In this document: positions 25,928 through 33,636 of the stretch, in pieces
How positions within the stretch are numbered: position 1 is the first letter of the stretch
Layout of the letters: every line of letters starts with the position of its first letter
NCBI GenBank assembly: GCA_045628985.1
Contig: JAZQQH010000132.1
Span: forward strand, 8-64,007
Direction of reading: 5' to 3'
DNA length: 64,000 bases
Origin: Bacteroidales bacterium
Lineage (GTDB): Bacteria > Bacteroidota > Bacteroidia > Bacteroidales > UBA3663
Translations under genes and position numbers: made by a program
The notes under the pieces: model-generated
Told to the model about the DNA's origin: nothing
What the model saw: the letters and a program-made list of their open reading frames with translations, nothing else
Database searches by the model: none

Positions 25928-27145
25928 ATGTTAGAAAACTCTAACCAGAGTGTGCCAGCTGCAGAGGTAGCTGGTAAGACCCTTGTCGAGGAATTCATGG
26001 CCCTGAGCTATGAGTTCCGTCGCAACGTACTTTCCGACAAGTACGAAATGAGAGAAGTCTGCAACAACAGCGAAGCAGACGCCCATCCTAAGCCTTGGCG
26101 ACCTGTGACCCGCGAGAGCCAGAACACCGTCGTCCGCCGTGCCAAACGCGAACTCGGGGACCTGAAAGGCCTGAAAGCCAGCATTGACGAGTACATCCAC
26201 TCCGAAGAGACACCTGACTACGACCCGATTGCCGAGTATCTCAACCAGCTACCTGCCTGGGACGGTCGTAACTATGTCCGCGAGCTCTTCCAGCGCCTCC
26301 CTGGCCTTATCGAAGAGCAGCTCGCACAGCACAGCGTCTGGCTCCGTAGCTGTGTAGCTCACTGGCTCCAGCTCGACAATCTTCACGGCAACGAGCAGGT
26401 CCTGACCCTCATCGGCGCGCAAGGTTGTGGCAAGAGTACCTTCTGTGCACAGCTCCTCCCTCCACAGTTCCGTGAGTACTATCTTGACCACGTCAACCTC
26501 GGCAACAAGTTCGACAAGGAGATGGCCCTGACCAGCAACCTCCTCGTCAATCTCGACGAGCTTGACCAGATCAAATCCGGCAAGCAGGCCGAACTCAAGC
26601 AGATGCTCTCGAAGATCCAGGTCAACGGTCGTCCGATCTTCGGCAAGGCCCAGCGCAGTCGCAAGCGCTACGCCTCTTTCGTAGCCACTACTAACAACCC
26701 TCGTCCTCTGCAGGATACGACAGGTTCCCGTCGCTACTTATGTGTAGAAATCCCACAGGACACCATCATCCTCAACGACCATCCCATCGACTATGACCAG
26801 CTTTACGCGCAGGTAGTTTATGAGGTTCGCGAGCAGAAGCTCCCATACTGGTTCTCTCCAGCCGAGACCCGTCGCATCGAAGAAATGAACGTCAAGTTCC
26901 AGCGTGTCAGCGACCTCGAATCGATGGTCACCACCTGCTTCCGAAGACCAGAAGCCGGAGAGATTGCCATCCCTCTCTTAACACGTGACATTGTGTATAT
27001 CCTGTGCAAGAACTACCCAGAGCTCAGGCCTACACAGGGCATGAATGTCAAGGTCGGCCGCATCCTGAAGGCCTTGGATTATGAGCATAAAGCCTCTAAT
27101 CAGGGCTCTGCTTACTTCATCGTCCCGATCAAACGCGCTGCATGA
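25928..27145 (+). CDS. VapE/VirE-family P-loop ATPase (helicase-like) with a C-terminal DUF3874-like region
   Basis: LPAWDG, Walker A GAQGCGKST, LVNLDELD Walker B, ASFVATTN, DTTGSRRYL; no N-terminal primase domain; candidate promoter TATCTTCG at ~25800. Confidence 0.88.
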   Translation: MLENSNQSVPAAEVAGKTLVEEFMALSYEFRRNVLSDKYEMREVCNNSEADAHPKPWRPVTRESQNTVVRRAKRELGDLKGLKASIDEYIHSEETPDYDPIAEYLNQLPAWDGRNYVRELFQRLPGLIEEQLAQHSVWLRSCVAHWLQLDNLHGNEQVLTLIGAQGCGKSTFCAQLLPPQFREYYLDHVNLGNKFDKEMALTSNLLVNLDELDQIKSGKQAELKQMLSKIQVNGRPIFGKAQRSRKRYASFVATTNNPRPLQDTTGSRRYLCVEIPQDTIILNDHPIDYDQLYAQVVYEVREQKLPYWFSPAETRRIEEMNVKFQRVSDLESMVTTCFRRPEAGEIAIPLLTRDIVYILCKNYPELRPTQGMNVKVGRILKALDYEHKASNQGSAYFIVPIKRAA

Positions 27146-27565: not shown

Positions 27566-28449
27566 AATTCTGGTCGCAATGTCACACTCATGAGTCCTCG
27601 ACGCATGGGTAAGACCGGATTGGTGCCTTCGATGGATTAACCCAGTTCTTTCGTAGTTGTAGTTTGGTCTTTTCTTCTGATCCTATTTCTGGTTCTCCAC
27701 AAGTATCACTTGATTTCAAGCCACAGCAAGCCGAAAATACGCTAAGTGAGATTTTTGAATATCTGAAAAGCTCTGATAGAGAGTGTTTTATTGCACTCGA
27801 TGAATTCCAGCAGGTCACTGAGTATCCGGAGACGGGGCTGGAAGCTGCCATTCGTTCGTATGCTCAATTCTGTCCGAACGTCCATTTCATCTTCTCGGGT
27901 AGCAAGCAACATCTGATGTCTGAGATATTTGATAGTCCTCAGCGTCCATTCTATCGCAGTACGCAGAAGGTCTCCATTGGAGCAATCCCAGAACGTAGCT
28001 ATTATCTCTTTGCCGCAGAATGGCTCTCGAAAGCAGATACCATGCTTCCGCAGGAGATCTTCCATCAGTTATATGAGCGATTTGAGGGCCATACCTGGTA
28101 TTTGCAGAACGTCCTCAACCATCTTTATGAGCAACGCCCTGCCCAGGTGAGCCAGGATGTAATCAACGAGTGTATTGCAGAGATCGTCCTTTCCGAATCT
28201 GAAGACTATAAGCGTCATTATAATCTGCTGACATCCAATCAGCAGCAGTTACTACGCGCAATTGGTATTGAAAAGTGCGTGCAATCCATTAACAGCGGAG
28301 AGTTCCTGTTGCGTTATGGTTTCAAAAGTACCAGCAGCATCAATAAAGCTTTATCCTACTTATTAGACAAAGAGTATGTCTATCGTTCGGATAAAGGTTA
28401 TATCGTTTACGATCGTTTCATGGGCCTGTGGCTTTTGAATCAGGTATAA
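27566..28449 (+). pseudogene. Disrupted AAA+ ATPase (archaeal-ATPase-like, wHTH C-terminus)
   Basis: Walker A segment NSGRNVTLMSPRRMGKTGL (27566-27622) stops at TAA 27638-27640, in a different frame from the Walker B (IALDEFQQ)...FIFSGS...YDRF ORF at 27664-28449; N-terminus missing. Confidence 0.8.
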
Positions 28450-28874: not shown

Positions 28875-31800
28875 TTATACAAGTTGTTTCCGATTGATGA
28901 CATCTTTAAGGACTCCGAGAATAATAATCTCTCCTTCATTTTCAAGATTGATTATTATAGGATCATATCCATCCTTATTTAATGGACGTAGTTCAATCTT
29001 GGTGTTCAAATTAGTAAGAGGATCCTTTTCGCTATGATACTGCTTAATGGTGTATTGACAATTGTAATCATTGTCCTTGCGACTCTGTCGAGCAAGAACA
29101 ATCTGGCCTTCACGGCTACCAGCATTACCAGAACCACCATACACTTCAAACACACAAAGATCTCCAGGATGTATCTTCGGAAGCATTGATTCTCCCTTGG
29201 CGCGAACGACAAACATCTGATTGTTTGGTTTTCGAATGTGTCTAGACACATCAATCCATCCTTCCATCTCTACATCATTCTTGCCTAATGATTGCACGCC
29301 TTCATCGATCAAGGCGCCGCAGGCTATGGCAACATCGTAGAGAGGGAGGAAGCGAGAGAAACGGTCGGAGATGGGAACGTTGGAAGTGTCGAGAACAAAA
29401 GGAGTGTTTTCGGCTTCTTGAGCTTCGCTCTGAACATGGTTGTCTTGGTTAATCCCATCTTTCTGTCTATTGTCTTTGCATTCAATTAATTCTTTGTATA
29501 TTCTAATCTTATCAAGGTAGTACTTTTCCATTTGAGAAACACACGATGCTTTTATGGCATTAACATAGGCCTCAATAAAATCCAAAGCTATCTTGCCGTC
29601 AATAAAAGGGATATTGATCTTTGTTTCGTTGAATAATCTATCAAAATCTCTTACCAATCCACTCAAATACCTTCCACTTGATTTATTGAACCACGTTATG
29701 AACCATTGTGCGATTGTCTCGTTGAAACCCTCAAATTTAGGCGTAGCTGTTTTCGTAAATTGCCCAGCATAGAAATCTTGGCCCATGTAGAAGAATTGCA
29801 TTCTCATCATACCCACAGCAATGACATTTCCTTTGACTTTGTGAGCTTCATCATAGTAATGAACATACCCCATGATGCCATTATTAGCGACAGTACGAGT
29901 GAAGTATGGATAACAAGCCCCTTCTGAAAAATCCAAATCTCCCTTATCTAATTTCGAATTTGATTTTATGTCGAAAAATTCAGAAACCTTTTTATCCTTG
30001 AATGTGCCTCCTTTTTCGATGAACGATTCTATAACCTTTTGTACACGAGGATCTATCTCTGAGTTTTGCATTCTAATTTTATCGCTAACCAACCAATCAA
30101 GATAGTTCTTTACTGTGTCTGCAAAATCTGATGCATTAGGGTTCTTCTCAATTTCTTTATGTTTGTCGCATGTCCAGTCATTTCCTTTCAACGAAATATA
30201 ATCTTCACAGTAATGGTTATTGAAGTAGTGCAGATTGCAATCATTCTTACCTCTTCCATAAAGAACCAATTTTACAATCTCTTCGTAACGTTCAACTGCA
30301 TGGTCTTCATTTCGGAGATTATTCTTTTGACTTGCTTTCTTTCTATTATATCTACCATAGCCATCGTTTGAAAAGTCAATGAATTTTACAAGATTTTGTG
30401 TGTCATGTGGAATGCCGACAGAGAAAACATAAATGGCAGTTTGAACATTTGCCTTTCCTCGAAAAATGTCAGCCATATGAATAGATGCTTCAAGCGTATT
30501 ATGTTTTAGCACTTCTGATGCGTAAGGCAGTCCTTTCCCACTACCAGCTTTCTCGTGAATTAGTACTGCAGCTCTTCCTGATTTCATCATTGAAAGAGCT
30601 TTCTGAACAAAAATCATACCTTTTCCTGGAGCAGAATATGGTGGATTTAGAAGAAATACAGTAGCAGGGAATGGTTCGTCTTTAAGCTTTCCTTGCTCGT
30701 AGTTGCCTTTGAATTCGAGAGAATTGCCTTGTATGATGTTTGCACTACCATCCTTCATCAAAATCATGTTGAGAACTGCAAGCATATACACATCGGGCAA
30801 TTTTTCTATTCCCAATAACTGCTTTGTTTTGATATCAAGAATCTTCTTTTCTAACTCTTTAGGACTCTGACTGTTTTTCTTGGCATCTTCAATCATCAGA
30901 TGCATAGCCGAAATGAGGAATCCTGCAGAACCTACAGTAAAATCCCATACGTAACTATCTTTGTTGACTTTACACAGCTTTGCCATCAATTCCGTGACGT
31001 ATCGAGGAGTCAAGACGACATCATTTTTGTCGCCATCAGGAATATCAACCCATTCATTCATTACGTTGAAAAGGCGGCCTGTAAAATCAATATTATGTAG
31101 TTCGCCCGTTACAAAAGGTAAGATGTTTTGTTTAATGTCTGTGTATACGGTTTTCAGTCGACTTTCTCCATTGATTGGTATCTCAAGATGTGAATGAAGA
31201 AACACCTTGTTTAGTAATTCTGTTATCATATTGATCTTCTCCACCGGCAAATCTTTTGCCTTCAAATAAGAAGATATTTTACGCATAATAATATGACCGT
31301 CAGTATCATTATCACTTTGTTCACCTCTCAATTGATCAATTCGCAATGGTTCTACCTTATCTTTAACTCCAAGGCCTGCCATAATCAAACCGGCGACAAG
31401 CTGAACACGGTTTCCAACGACAATATCTTGCTCATCATGAAGTTTCTGGTTGAGAGTCTTTAGTTTACGCTCAATATCATCTTCTAACACAAGCGTTCTT
31501 CTTTCTTTCTCCTCCTTTGACAAAGAGATATCATCAATCCTTTTTACAAACTCTTCTACATTTTTCTGCAACAGGAATGAAAGGTCTGAATATTCTCCTA
31601 CTTTTTTAGGAAGGAAAAGATTGGATTTGGCAACATAATAAACTCCAATCTCTACCTTTAACTCATCATTGACCTTGTATCCATTGACTCCAATGGCTAC
31701 TACCTCCTTATAGGATTCTGTGTTTTTCAAGATGGCATCAGCATAGTGAACGGCACCATTGACAGCATACTTTGCTATGTTATTATAGTTTGATTCACCG

Positions 31801-32093
31801 TCTTTCTTCTTGTTGTCAACCTCGCCTTCTGTATTGAATTTAACAAAGTCACCCTTTGTCCCTTTAATCTCAATCATTACAGGGATTCGACGAAGGGTAC
31901 TTGTTTCAATAAAAGATTTTATATCGGGAAAGTTTGTACCAGAACCGCCTTTCTTGCTCGGTGCTTTACGTAAAGCTTCCTCAATCTCGGGATTGATGGA
32001 TTCTGTCTTGGTATAGTATTTCTGAGAGCCGAATTGGCGCTTGCACCAATCTTCTACTTGTTCTTCTATGCTGCGAGTTGTATTTTTTGCCAT
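28875..32093 (-). CDS. Single-chain type IIG/IIB-like restriction-modification enzyme (PD-(D/E)xK nuclease, N6-adenine MTase, TRD) fused to a C-terminal S24 (LexA/UmuD-like) peptidase domain
   Basis: FPD...VMIEIKG nuclease motif; LTPRYV, WDFTVGSAGFL (motif I), LNPPY (motif IV); HsdS-like TRD (YPYFTRTVANNGIMG); LPLYDVAIACG...AKGESMLPKI..GD...TIKQY...LRPLN S24 motifs; AT-rich. Confidence 0.85.
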   Translation of the reverse strand: MAKNTTRSIEEQVEDWCKRQFGSQKYYTKTESINPEIEEALRKAPSKKGGSGTNFPDIKSFIETSTLRRIPVMIEIKGTKGDFVKFNTEGEVDNKKKDGESNYNNIAKYAVNGAVHYADAILKNTESYKEVVAIGVNGYKVNDELKVEIGVYYVAKSNLFLPKKVGEYSDLSFLLQKNVEEFVKRIDDISLSKEEKERRTLVLEDDIERKLKTLNQKLHDEQDIVVGNRVQLVAGLIMAGLGVKDKVEPLRIDQLRGEQSDNDTDGHIIMRKISSYLKAKDLPVEKINMITELLNKVFLHSHLEIPINGESRLKTVYTDIKQNILPFVTGELHNIDFTGRLFNVMNEWVDIPDGDKNDVVLTPRYVTELMAKLCKVNKDSYVWDFTVGSAGFLISAMHLMIEDAKKNSQSPKELEKKILDIKTKQLLGIEKLPDVYMLAVLNMILMKDGSANIIQGNSLEFKGNYEQGKLKDEPFPATVFLLNPPYSAPGKGMIFVQKALSMMKSGRAAVLIHEKAGSGKGLPYASEVLKHNTLEASIHMADIFRGKANVQTAIYVFSVGIPHDTQNLVKFIDFSNDGYGRYNRKKASQKNNLRNEDHAVERYEEIVKLVLYGRGKNDCNLHYFNNHYCEDYISLKGNDWTCDKHKEIEKNPNASDFADTVKNYLDWLVSDKIRMQNSEIDPRVQKVIESFIEKGGTFKDKKVSEFFDIKSNSKLDKGDLDFSEGACYPYFTRTVANNGIMGYVHYYDEAHKVKGNVIAVGMMRMQFFYMGQDFYAGQFTKTATPKFEGFNETIAQWFITWFNKSSGRYLSGLVRDFDRLFNETKINIPFIDGKIALDFIEAYVNAIKASCVSQMEKYYLDKIRIYKELIECKDNRQKDGINQDNHVQSEAQEAENTPFVLDTSNVPISDRFSRFLPLYDVAIACGALIDEGVQSLGKNDVEMEGWIDVSRHIRKPNNQMFVVRAKGESMLPKIHPGDLCVFEVYGGSGNAGSREGQIVLARQSRKDNDYNCQYTIKQYHSEKDPLTNLNTKIELRPLNKDGYDPIIINLENEGEIIILGVLKDVINRKQLV

Positions 32094-32140
32094 TGGTAGA
32101 TCGGAGTATTAGCATTGATCTACCACTCACGTGAGCGCAC

Positions 32141-32365
32141 AAAAAGGGCATGAACCTTCTTATGCGTTCTCCGAGGCTGCCTAGGAAAAGAGACCTCATC
32201 CATCGTTAAGAAATGCCCACGCCCAAAAGCATGAACATTGACCTATTAAAACGATGGATAAGGCACACTTCACCCATGGAAGTTGCCTAACCACTATTTT
32301 TGTGTTCTTATCTCTGTAATTGGTTTCCTAGGCCATTCAGGAGAACGCAAATAATAGTCAATGCG
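32141..32365 (-). ncRNA. Putative structured leader RNA upstream of the RM gene
   Basis: Nested stems 32163-72/32340-49, 32179-88/32324-33 and 32194-207/32250-63, plus two flank-to-loop pairings; mismatches on + read as G-U pairs on the minus strand. Confidence 0.65.
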
Positions 32366-32472
32366 CGTTATATGTTAATATGTTACTATTTCTGTACTTT
32401 CTGTTTTTTAATTCGTTTTATCCTCTCCACACACCAATAGTGCGTGTCGGGATGGTGTTTCTTTTTCAAGAA

Positions 32473-32697
32473 TTAGCTTGCCGCATTGTCGCAGAACATC
32501 TCGTAAAGAGCTACGGCTCCAAGATGCCAGAACTTGGTTTCTTCACGTTGAAGTCCTTGATAGGTCTTAGAGGCATAGAAGCGTTGTAAAGCCTCTAACT
32601 GAGAACAATGTTCGTTGGCGGCAATGATACCAGCTACGTTTGCTATCTTTCCTGGCAGGAATAGATACAGATTCTGCTGAGTGACTTCTAAGTTCAT
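32473..32697 (-). CDS. DUF3791-like small helical protein
   Basis: EALQRFYASKTYQGLQREETKFWHLG motif; directly follows the DUF3990-like gene. Confidence 0.7.
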   Translation of the reverse strand: MNLEVTQQNLYLFLPGKIANVAGIIAANEHCSQLEALQRFYASKTYQGLQREETKFWHLGAVALYEMFCDNAAS

Positions 32698-32702
32698 CTT
32701 CT

Positions 32703-33185
32703 CTATCGCAATTTGATGGTTTCAACTTCCTTGAATGCCAGATGCTTTAATGCCGCATTTGTGTGGAACAACAGCTGATCTACAAGGTCATATACTTTCA
32801 ACTCTCTGAGAAGGTCTTCCTTATTGAACACTCCACTTTCGTAAAGTGCAAAGCAAGCATAAACTCTATCGTTGGCAACTGGTCCATACACGAAGTCATA
32901 GTTGTGTGTGAACCCAGTCTTGTTTCTATTGTTGTCTACAAAATCTATCCATTCATCAGTGGGCTCATCGAACCAAAGGGTGTTGAGGTTCTTGACCACA
33001 TCCAAGTCAACTTCATAGACGTTTACATACCCTTCTTCCGCATCTTTCTTGTGCCGCATTACCCAATCAACTGCTTGCTGATAATCGGTAGTGGTATAGA
33101 ATCCCTCACCATAATCGAGAGTGCGGTTGGGCTTGCGGATTTCTGGGTTGCGCACTATTTCCAAGCTTCCATGATAAACCTTCAT
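32703..33185 (-). CDS. DUF3990 family protein
   Basis: VYHGS...LDYGEGFYTTT, WIDFVDNNR, YDFVYGPVAND, QLLFHT. Confidence 0.88.
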   Translation of the reverse strand: MKVYHGSLEIVRNPEIRKPNRTLDYGEGFYTTTDYQQAVDWVMRHKKDAEEGYVNVYEVDLDVVKNLNTLWFDEPTDEWIDFVDNNRNKTGFTHNYDFVYGPVANDRVYACFALYESGVFNKEDLLRELKVYDLVDQLLFHTNAALKHLAFKEVETIKLR

Positions 33186-33397
33186 ATTGCCTTCCTCCTT
33201 TCGATAAAATCATCAATTTCTTCCATTAGCCACTGGCGACTTTGCGTGTGGAGTACATCAAAATTCTCTGCGAGGTATGATGACACACCTGTCGAAAAGA
33301 ATAGTGAAGCGACCTCGACTCCATCCATTCCTTTCGTATGCTTGTATTGTTCGATACAAAACGCCACAAAGTAGGAAATGTCATTATCTCTATTCAT
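33182..33397 (-). CDS. DUF3791 family protein
   Basis: FVAFCIEQYK...YLAENFDVLHTQSRQWLMEEI; ATGA overlap with the DUF3990-like gene. Confidence 0.85.
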   Translation of the reverse strand: MNRDNDISYFVAFCIEQYKHTKGMDGVEVASLFFSTGVSSYLAENFDVLHTQSRQWLMEEIDDFIERRKAI

Positions 33398-33430
33398 CGT
33401 ATTGCTGAGCTTTCAGTATTTCTGCGTTGG

Positions 33431-33438
33431 CAAAGATA
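33431..33438 (-). promoter_or_regulatory. sigmaA -7 element for the DUF3791-DUF3990-RM operon
   Basis: TATCTTTG on the minus strand, about 33 nt upstream of the ATG at 33397. Confidence 0.65.
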
Positions 33439-33636
33439 CACATTTTAAATTATTAAATAACTATATTCTTCCTTTTTTTTAGAACTTTGGTTCATTTTTG
33501 CTTTTATTTGCCATAAATAGGTGCAGTACAATTAATTTTTTTTATTCAAATCAATCGTTTTTTTATTCTGCCAACCACAGGGCGAAGAACTTGTTATATA
33601 CTTCGTAGATATCTTTATCATTGGTGATGATATTAA

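What the first reader, a model, noticed from the sequence alone, without database searches (positions are those of the whole stretch)
32094..32365. Pseudoknot-capable ~220-nt structured RNA directly upstream of the restriction enzyme gene
Seen: the gap between the DUF3791-like gene and the RM gene contains nested complementary segments. These are tgcgttctcc 32163-72 / ggagaacgca 32340-49, gcctaggaaa 32179-88 / tttcctaggc 32324-33, and cctcatccatcgtt 32194-207 / aacgatggataagg 32250-63. The loop of the innermost stem can also pair with both outer flanks (gggcatg 32146-52 with cacgccc 32218-24; cattgacctatta 32236-48 with taatagtcaatg 32352-63), which would form pseudoknots. The two C-A/A-C mismatches on + are G-U pairs on the minus strand, so the fold favours the mRNA-sense strand. 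A separate 9-bp hairpin (tggtagatc/gatctacca, 32094-32125) abuts the RM start codon, and an out-of-frame ORF (32199-31981) starts inside the inner stem. Inference: this is a cis-regulatory or cofactor ncRNA that gates expression of a toxic defence enzyme, for example by delaying restriction after transfer or by responding to infection. I cannot assign it to a known RNA family.
Basis: partly seen in the sequence, partly recalled or inferred. Interest (0 to 1): 0.82.

Follow-up and report, generated by a model that had tools for sequence, protein, structure and literature searches.

The report
Switchable RNA leader of restriction genes
A roughly 230-base folded RNA that matches no catalogued family sits in front of restriction-modification and cell-surface genes in many gut Bacteroidales, and it likely acts as a default-off switch that stops transcription and blocks translation of these defence genes unless it folds the other way.

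Summary
All the listed helices are present; the minus strand folds with z = -7.1. It belongs to a Bacteroidales RNA family: 4 copies in this genome, in 19 of 39 genomes of the family, and 112 real pattern hits in a capped GTDB scan. Rfam, five papers and nine paper searches gave no match. Covariation supports the nested core and also helices that exclude one another: a 17-bp long-range helix followed by a U-tract (predicted terminator), two antiterminator hairpins, an early 5′ hairpin, and a 5′ segment that can unzip the hairpin over the start codon. A Bacteroidales promoter box lies upstream in 105 of 128 copies. At least 81 of 135 downstream genes are restriction-modification or other defence genes from about 12 families; 17 modify the envelope. 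Rumen RNA contigs of a homologue are far deeper over the leader than over the gene (one campaign; weak hint). Best reading: a default-off attenuator coupled to a translation lock, with an unknown trigger. The upstream ORF is not conserved, and a cofactor role is unlikely.

The parts
33431..33438 (-). Bacteroidales -7 promoter box (TATCTTTG, then C), 34 nt before the DUF3791 start; likely drives the three-gene block and reads into the leader. This copy has no box of its own within 200 nt.
   Evidence: consensus TANNTTTGY from PMC12632263 (passage)
32473..33397 (-). Three-gene block: DUF3791 (33182-33397), DUF3990 (32703-33185) and a 74-aa ORF (32473-32697), matching the PADLOC candidate system PDC-M13
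   Evidence: no terminator-like site between it and the leader
32367..32385 (-). A-rich unstructured lead-in with ACATA repeats (possible protein-binding site; inferred)
   Evidence: ACATA within 30 nt upstream in 53 of 100 homologues, against 4 of 100 in a control window
32350..32364 (-). S1, the 5′ 'key' segment with three alternative partners: A*, D* and F
32285..32360 (-). Early (metastable) 5′ hairpin: S1 and the P1 5′ strand pair with A* (32311-32285); 9-nt loop CCUAGGAAA (32332-32324) closed by 32333:32323 and 32334:32322
   Evidence: stepwise folds; closing pair A-U 71, U-A 19, G-C 3 of 98; the long stem itself is only modestly supported
32163..32349 (-). P1, 10 bp: 32349-40 with 32163-72
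   Evidence: all 10 pairs show changes on both sides, 92% of cells paired; top mutual-information pairs in an unfitted alignment
32179..32333 (-). P2: 32333-24 with 32179-88; its 5′ strand is the loop of the early hairpin
   Evidence: 100% of cells paired, 5 of 7 pairs compensatory; part of its invariance is imposed by the search pattern
32190..32314 (-).
32194..32263 (-). Helix C, 14 bp: 32263-50 with 32194-207; sequence varies among homologues
   Evidence: seen by eye in alignments A1 and A2
32236..32248 (-). D*, complementary to S1 (off-state pseudoknot 1)
   Evidence: duplex -7.2 against -3.6 kcal/mol shuffled, better in 87 of 92
32212..32239 (-). E*:E hairpin (32239-28 with 32212-23), predicted antiterminator 1
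   Evidence: cognate -15.5, non-cognate -11.0, shuffled -5.7 kcal/mol
32146..32224 (-). E:E** long-range helix, 17 bp (32224-07 with 32146-62), directly followed by the U-tract; predicted terminator helix (off-state pseudoknot 2)
   Evidence: not in the model used to align, yet 87-95% of cells paired and 14 of 16 counted pairs compensatory; 4-8 independent switches per pair on a tree built without these columns
32173..32197 (-). P4, 4 bp: GAGG 32197-94 with CCUC 32176-73; crosses P2 and P3 (tertiary knot or alternative hairpin)
   Evidence: GGGG:CCCC 39, GAGG:CCUC 31, GUGG:CCAC 4, CAGG:CCUG 3, UAGG:CCUA 1; 0 of 1000 permutations as good
32137..32165 (-). U-tract (32145-41) and E**:G hairpin (32165-55 with 32137-47), predicted antiterminator 2, which buries the U-tract
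   Evidence: 5 or more U in the 8 nt after E:E** in 93 of 100; hairpin columns 70-96% paired, mostly by G-U tolerance
32112..32128 (-). F, complementary to S1 and also the 5′ arm of the start-codon hairpin; point at which downstream genes are exchanged
   Evidence: S1:F at -9 kcal/mol or better in 65 of 92; identity with G024 ends at 32112
32094..32125 (-). F:F* hairpin ending one base before the AUG (predicted translation lock)
   Evidence: present before 44 of 53 RM genes and 0 of 14 surface-protein genes
28875..32093 (-). Type IIG restriction-methyltransferase fused to a specificity domain and a C-terminal Peptidase_S24 domain, 1072 aa
   Evidence: PADLOC REase_MTase_IIG, E 9e-178

Best explanation
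This is a conserved 5′-leader RNA with two mutually exclusive folds that likely acts as a default-off transcription attenuator coupled to a translation lock on the gene behind it. Shown: the helices, their covariation, the upstream promoter box, the U-tract and the gene associations. Inferred order of folding: (1) the first ~90 nt form a hairpin that hides S1, so the E*:E hairpin forms next; (2) the P2 3′ strand invades the 9-nt loop and P1 zips up, freeing S1 some 20 nt before the U-tract is made; (3) OFF: S1 captures D*, E pairs with E** over 17 bp right before the U-tract, and a ~230-nt double-pseudoknotted RNA is released; any escapee keeps the F:F* hairpin over the start codon; (4) ON: if step 3 loses the race, E*:E persists, E** folds back on the U-tract, the polymerase reads through, and S1 pairs with F, which frees the start codon. 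I infer that the race is tipped by a host factor or condition common to all copies (a bound protein or RNA, or polymerase speed). The 1-5 copies per genome would then form a regulon that keeps self-damaging nucleases, methylases and envelope-modifying enzymes low until needed. The trigger is not identified.
For: Covariation of the nested core and of alternative helices that were not in the aligning model: 93.4% of cells paired, 238 two-sided changes against 59 in shuffles, slid controls 37-55% paired; repeated independent switches on a tree. The same E nucleotides covary with both E* and E**. G-U bias to the sense strand. TAnnTTTG within 200 nt upstream in 105 of 128 copies, 72 of the hits in the two bins 41-80 nt upstream, against 31 of 128 in the opposite orientation; 68 of 72 against 31 of 72 in the metagenome set. 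U-rich tail in 93 of 100. Stepwise folding reproduces the early hairpin and the ON fold. Duplex sums for the two states are similar: ON about -45, OFF about -47 kcal/mol before pseudoknot penalties (my sum). Start-codon hairpin before 44 of 53 RM genes and 0 of 14 surface genes. In Prevotella bryantii a -5.2 kcal/mol structure in the 5′ UTR cut reporter protein fivefold (PMC3155529, abstract). RNA contigs in rumen metatranscriptome runs cover a homologous leader and nothing in the 200 nt before its promoter region; near-identical contigs have depth 1065-1503 over the leader against 4-6 over the gene in run X8, while runs X15 and X16 give ratios of 1-2. This is a weak hint only.
Against: No direct RNA ends, probing or reporter data. 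The read tool warns that contig depth cannot rank parts of a gene; the high-depth runs (X4, X8, X11) may be one campaign, and X14, X1 and X10 show little or no excess. No run was laid on the window's own copy. A terminator whose helix spans a 45-nt structured insert and must form as a pseudoknot is unusual, and the tools cannot score pseudoknots. The U-tract is confounded: it must be U-rich to pair with AUAAGAA. The early stem and S1 pairings beat shuffles but only modestly beat non-cognate partners (58-82% of cases). The link between the hairpin and RM genes rests on only 3 independent pairs (p 0.25). Three intact-looking copies (L072, L132, L138) have no gene of their own behind them.
Confidence: 0.6

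Rival explanations
1. A true riboswitch: the double-pseudoknot fold with the P2/P3/P4 knot binds a small molecule (for example a stress nucleotide or SAM) and so decides between the same OFF and ON platforms.
For: Position, promoter and expression platform are riboswitch-like. P4 covaries and crosses P2/P3, which suggests a compact core. A few apparently unpaired positions are conserved (GAAAC, the ATA after P3, A's in the P1/P2 loop).
Against: Much of the invariance is imposed by the search pattern or by multi-partner pairing, and diverged members found by the model change the P2 loop sequence. The downstream genes share no evident metabolite.
Confidence: 0.17
2. The released ~230-nt RNA is the main product and acts in trans, for instance by pairing through its freed A* strand with S1 of nascent copies. 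That would switch defence genes on only after the RNA has accumulated, giving a delay after gene transfer.
For: The leader may be abundant (weak). A* is complementary to S1 and is unpaired in both final folds. A few copies lack their own downstream gene.
Against: 124 of 134 copies have a same-strand ORF starting within 330 nt, and S1 is complementary to a segment next to the start codon; both point to cis action. Abundant terminated leaders are expected of attenuators (own knowledge).
Confidence: 0.1
3. A DNA-level module: a single-stranded-DNA structure or recombination site at which defence cassettes are exchanged, with regulation secondary.
For: Near-identical copies carry different genes, and the switch often falls at F. 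Partial copies follow cassettes in G019 and G397. Two subfamilies are cut at the same point by a shared foreign stretch.
Against: Dedicated promoter, U-tract, start-codon hairpin and cover in RNA libraries. No match in plasmids or phages and 1 viral contig in two scans. Upstream neighbours vary and show no evident recurring integrase (judged by eye, not scanned). Ordinary homologous recombination between repeats would also give the exchanges.
Confidence: 0.06
4. A self-cleaving or RNase-directing element that processes the mRNA and so activates or destroys it.
For: A double pseudoknot with short tertiary pairing is typical of small ribozymes (own knowledge).
Against: No Rfam match; few invariant unpaired residues; three layers of alternative helices fit a switch better.
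Confidence: 0.05

Closest known systems
Riboswitches and attenuators with terminator/antiterminator and translation platforms (general class; own knowledge)
   Same: 5′-leader position behind a promoter, covarying core, mutually exclusive helices, U-tract, hairpin over the initiation region.
   Different: No Rfam family matches; no ligand known; genes are defence and envelope genes from many families; the predicted terminator helix is long-range and pseudoknotted; one 5′ segment serves both the transcription and the translation switch.
Antisense-controlled attenuators and pseudoknot switches of plasmid replication (pT181, pIP501, IncI1 repZ; recalled)
   Same: An early hairpin exposes a loop that a later strand invades; alternative folds decide termination or translation.
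   Different: No conserved antisense promoter box; chromosomal; no replication gene; no match among 72,556 plasmid records.
Type I toxin mRNA leaders with metastable hairpins (hok, aapA, tisB; recalled)
   Same: Ordered co-transcriptional refolding keeps a harmful gene's start site closed until a long-range pairing forms.
   Different: Precedes large enzymes rather than small toxin peptides; no antisense antitoxin seen; has a predicted termination step.
Known control of Bacteroidales RM and surface loci: DNA inversion and UpxY/UpxZ antitermination (PMC12632263, passages read)
   Same: Same kinds of genes (RM, surface) under tight control in the same order of bacteria.
   Different: Those use invertible DNA or NusG-like proteins; this is a large structured RNA found before unrelated gene families.

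Membership tests
Any Rfam 15 family | Covariance-model match over the element | tested here: not met
   No hit on the element in the window, 19 loci or 12 loci (L040, L041, L034 and nine diverged hits); the listed hits are below gathering score and lie elsewhere
Riboswitch | Conserved structured domain in a 5′ leader with covariation | tested here: met
Riboswitch | Mutually exclusive expression platform | tested here: met
   E*:E against E:E** plus U-tract; S1:F against F:F*; predicted, not probed
Riboswitch | Direct, selective binding of a small molecule | not testable with these tools
   needs in-line probing
Riboswitch | Downstream genes share a metabolite or signal | tested here: inconclusive
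   RM/defence 81 of 135, envelope-modifying 17, the rest surface or unknown
Antisense-controlled attenuator (pT181/pIP501 type) | Convergent promoter making an antisense RNA | tested here: not met
   antisense TAnnTTTG at most 7 of 128 in any 20-nt bin within or after the element; other promoter types not tested
Leader-peptide attenuator | Conserved short upstream ORF | tested here: not met
   ATG near the 32199 column in 25 of 100; only that position was counted
Type I toxin-antitoxin mRNA leader | Small toxin ORF with antisense antitoxin | tested here: not met
   downstream proteins are mostly large enzymes; no antisense promoter
Retron or DRT ncRNA | Adjacent reverse transcriptase | tested here: not met
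   no RT family among the 61 and 19 downstream proteins scanned; upstream genes were not scanned
MITE / non-autonomous transposon | Orientation and position independent of genes | tested here: not met
   same-strand ORF within 330 nt in 124 of 134, promoter upstream in 105 of 128; target-site duplications not tested
Self-cleaving ribozyme | Site-specific self-cleavage | not testable with these tools
   no Rfam match; needs an assay

The most novel reading that the evidence does not exclude
An RNA-encoded defence regulon: one riboswitch-like leader family, copied in front of a dozen unrelated restriction systems and envelope-modifying genes, senses a danger or cell-state signal (a nucleotide, a phage- or host-made factor, or its own accumulated transcript) and switches the whole armoury on together through a double-pseudoknot folding race.
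Probability: 0.3. Interest if true: 0.92.

Novelty: new variant of a known kind. Interest (0 to 1): 0.8.

Why it matters
How cells keep restriction systems from harming themselves, and whether they can switch them on together, is an open question; the known answers are mostly controller proteins, methylation-sensitive promoters and DNA inversions (own knowledge; PMC12632263 for inversions). A portable RNA leader shared by about 12 unrelated defence gene families in dominant rumen and gut bacteria would add an RNA-level control layer that can be tested directly with stem mutants. It is also a marker for new defence genes: several unannotated 770-810-aa proteins behind it resemble Eco57I-type enzymes.

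Tried and rejected
Rfam: no match. Phage and plasmid BLAST: no match. Viral contigs: 0 hits with the long pattern and 1 with a 5′ pattern, before a methylase-like gene. Phylum sample: hits only in genomes of the same order, 3 of 151. Earlier scan notes: nothing relevant. Papers: nine novelty or background searches ran besides one on translation initiation; none listed this RNA. Term look-ups in the main text of PMC5737381, PMC11109978 and PMC8632094 found no matching motif; their supplements were unreadable or not read. In PMC8040213 eight supplementary files held none of five sequence motifs, and the three EcoRI-linked candidates in its main table are non-Bacteroidales; files 7 and 8 were not searched. 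A description in those unseen files cannot be excluded. Rejected: conserved upstream ORF, conserved antisense promoter, cofactor of one enzyme, and loop-loop dimerisation through the palindrome CCUAGG (many loops are not palindromic). Rows dropped: 5 of 117 GTDB pattern hits as chance (L062, L069, L140, L143, L145) plus duplicates and one truncated copy; 23 rows lacked anchors (97 kept); 8 of 100 lacked an ORF; 19 of 120 metagenome hits failed an anchor filter that may be too strict. The E**:G register was off by two and was redone. Runs X1, X10 and X14 gave no clear leader excess. The weak model hits L160, L161 and L168 (E about 1e-4) look like shorter relatives but were not counted.

Full report
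Observation. The minus strand, which is the sense strand of the downstream gene, folds at -107.5 kcal/mol, z -7.14; the plus strand gives z -5.50. The downstream gene is an intact 1072-aa Type IIG restriction-methyltransferase with a specificity domain and a C-terminal S24 domain. Upstream on the same strand lie three small genes matching the candidate defence system PDC-M13, with a TATCTTTGC promoter box at 33438-33430 and no terminator-like site before the element.

It is a family. BLAST found matches in 13 of 39 genomes of the family. The 80 titled GTDB records are Bacteroidales or unclassified gut bins, apart from two of the chance hits and one real hit labelled Firmicutes (L064). A covariance model finds 4 copies in this genome, 1-5 copies in 19 of 39 family genomes, matches in 11 of 151 genomes across the order, 7 of them strong, and none outside the order in a 151-genome phylum sample (a sample, not proof of absence). 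No plasmid or phage record matches; one viral contig does. Rfam gives nothing on the element in the window or in 31 further loci.

Structure. In an alignment of 129 sequences not fitted to any structure (mean identity 58%), the top mutual-information pairs are P1, P2, P3, the pair that closes an early hairpin, and pairs of E with two different partners. On 100 model-aligned sequences the nested core is 87% paired, with 574 two-sided changes against 160 in shuffles (fitted alignment). Helices that were not in the model (E:E**, P4, the first four S1:D* pairs, the early-hairpin closing pairs) are 93% paired, with 238 two-sided changes against 59; slid controls are 37-55% paired. Because relatives share changes, I counted switches on a tree built without the E, E** and P4 columns: 4-8 independent switches for each of six E:E** pairs and 7 for the variable P4 pair. 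E:E** has 169 G-U against 14 A-C cells on the sense strand. P4 (GAGG:CCUC) covaries in five sequence forms. Weaker: the long stem of the early hairpin and the S1 pairings beat shuffled partners in 73-90% of 97 sequences but non-cognate partners in only 58-82%, partly because S1 is conserved.

Signals. TAnnTTTG, the Bacteroidales -7 box (PMC12632263, passage), lies within 200 nt upstream in 105 of 128 copies, peaking 41-80 nt before the RNA; the opposite orientation occurs in 31. The metagenome set gives 68 and 31 of 72. The window's copy is one of 23 without its own box and would be reached by read-through from PDC-M13. After E:E**, 93 of 100 copies have at least 5 U in 8 nt; this tail can also pair back with AUAAGAA. 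S1 pairs with a segment before the start codon at -9 kcal/mol or better in 65 of 92. A hairpin at the start site is present before 44 of 53 RM, 8 of 13 envelope and 0 of 14 surface genes, but only 3 independent contrasts exist. There is no conserved antisense box and no conserved upstream ATG (25 of 100).

Downstream genes. 124 of 134 copies have a same-strand ORF within 330 nt. I scanned 61 of these and 19 further or longer sequences against Pfam, 18 against PADLOC, and assigned the rest by BLAST cluster. Of 135 genes, 81 are RM or defence: EcoRI-type methylase 45, Type III Mod 10, PLD-SNF2 helicase 5, MmeI 4, HsdM 4, MmeI-methylase-like 3, C5 methylase 3, Type IIG 2, D12 methylase 2, and one each of Tsp45I, a Type IV-like enzyme and PDC-S11. 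Five more resemble Eco57I-type enzymes by language-model features (leads). Seventeen modify the envelope (Acyl_transf_3 8, MBOAT 3, sulfatase-family 3, GT2 2, GINT1_N 1); the rest are mostly surface or unknown proteins. Near-duplicate loci are included, so the counts are not independent. In 87 further distinct metagenome copies, 44 of 81 ORFs hit the RM/defence groups. RM genes appear in most clades of the RNA tree. Exchange can be recent: 1494 bp (window 32112-33597) are 97% identical in G024, where a Type III Mod-Res pair follows instead. This argues against a cofactor role and fits a portable promoter-leader.

Expression. Using homologue L040, 13 runs on record as RNA hold part of the stretch. 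In four rumen RNA runs, contigs cover the leader and nothing from 2241 to 2445. In X8 two contigs with 0-1 differences have depth 1065 and 1503 over the leader, while contigs over the gene have depth 4-6; X4 and X11 point the same way, X14 does not. X15 and X16 (kind not on record) give leader-to-gene ratios of 1-2 for near-identical contigs, X1 is flat, and X10 shows little excess. The tool warns that contig depth cannot rank genes, RNA libraries may hold DNA, and X4, X8 and X11 may be one campaign. This is therefore a weak hint of an abundant terminated leader, not a measurement.

Mechanism. Folding the growing transcript gives the order: early hairpin, transient S1:D*, E*:E, C, then P2/P1 replacing the early hairpin, then E**:G, then S1:F (pseudoknots cannot be modelled). 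Two end states follow. ON: E*:E, E**:G and S1:F, with the start codon open. Summed duplex energies are close (about -47 against -45 kcal/mol, without pseudoknot penalties; my sum). Before F is made, the OFF exchange gains about 20 kcal/mol of pairing, so I infer termination is the default and read-through needs a delay of the cascade. Bacteroidetes translation is sensitive to structure near the start (PMC3155529, abstract), so the hairpin would be an effective second lock. Helices, signals and gene links are shown; folding order, termination, translational control and the trigger are inferred. I put this at 0.6; rivals are a ligand-binding riboswitch (0.17), a trans-acting released RNA (0.10), a DNA-level exchange site (0.06) and a ribozyme (0.05).

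Comparison and novelty. It works like an attenuator or riboswitch leader and recalls antisense-controlled plasmid leaders and type I toxin mRNAs (recalled, not tested against sequences), but it fails their membership tests where these could be run. Paper searches listed no description. I read passages of PMC5737381, PMC11109978, PMC8632094 and PMC12632263, supplement rows of PMC8040213, and the abstract of PMC3155529. Supplementary alignments of the motif-discovery papers were not visible and could hold a fragment of it. Verdict: real, an apparently undescribed RNA family, a new variant of a known regulatory kind applied to defence genes; interest 0.8.

Noticed in passing
L042 and L121, just after the E** arm: Two different subfamilies of the leader both break off at the U-tract and continue into a shared AT-rich stretch containing an inverted repeat; possibly a mobile element that targets the leader's 3′ end.
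   Followed up: partly
window 28875-29300 (C-terminus of the RM protein); L175 5192-7846: The Type IIG enzyme ends in a Peptidase_S24 (LexA-like) domain; related DNA lies near the end of a Type III Res-like gene in G019. It might couple the enzymes to DNA-damage signalling.
   Followed up: no
window 32473-33397; L172; L175: The PDC-M13 three-gene block travels with the leader in at least three genomes at different chromosomal sites, each time before a different RM system; in G019 it is joined to another leader subfamily.
   Followed up: partly
L175 7980-8051; L032 1501-1600: Partial copies of the leader lie after or near cassettes headed by a full copy, as recombination between leader repeats would leave.
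   Followed up: partly
L066, L097, L106, L108, L038, L058, L131: Proteins of up to 770-820 aa with no Pfam hit (five also without PADLOC hits, four without NCBIfam hits) stand behind the leader; two tested resemble N6_Mtase/Eco57I clusters at 0.95-0.96: candidate new Type IIG-like systems.
   Followed up: partly
L160, L161, L168, L159: Shorter relatives in other Bacteroidales families keep the nested stems, the GGCGUGG hairpin, its 3′ complement and the U-tract but lack the middle; possibly the ancestral core.
   Followed up: no
L082, L088: A surface-gene subfamily of the leader, without the start-codon hairpin, precedes small Cys-repeat radical-SAM target peptides (TIGR04117, below cut-off).
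   Followed up: no
window 32410-32460: A hairpin between the 74-aa ORF and the leader is followed by a T-rich run on the plus strand; it may stop antisense transcription. Similar inserted hairpins precede other copies.
   Followed up: no
window 25928-27145: VapE-like/DUF3874 protein and an AAA ATPase gene (27664-28449) next to the RM gene suggest an island edge.
   Followed up: no
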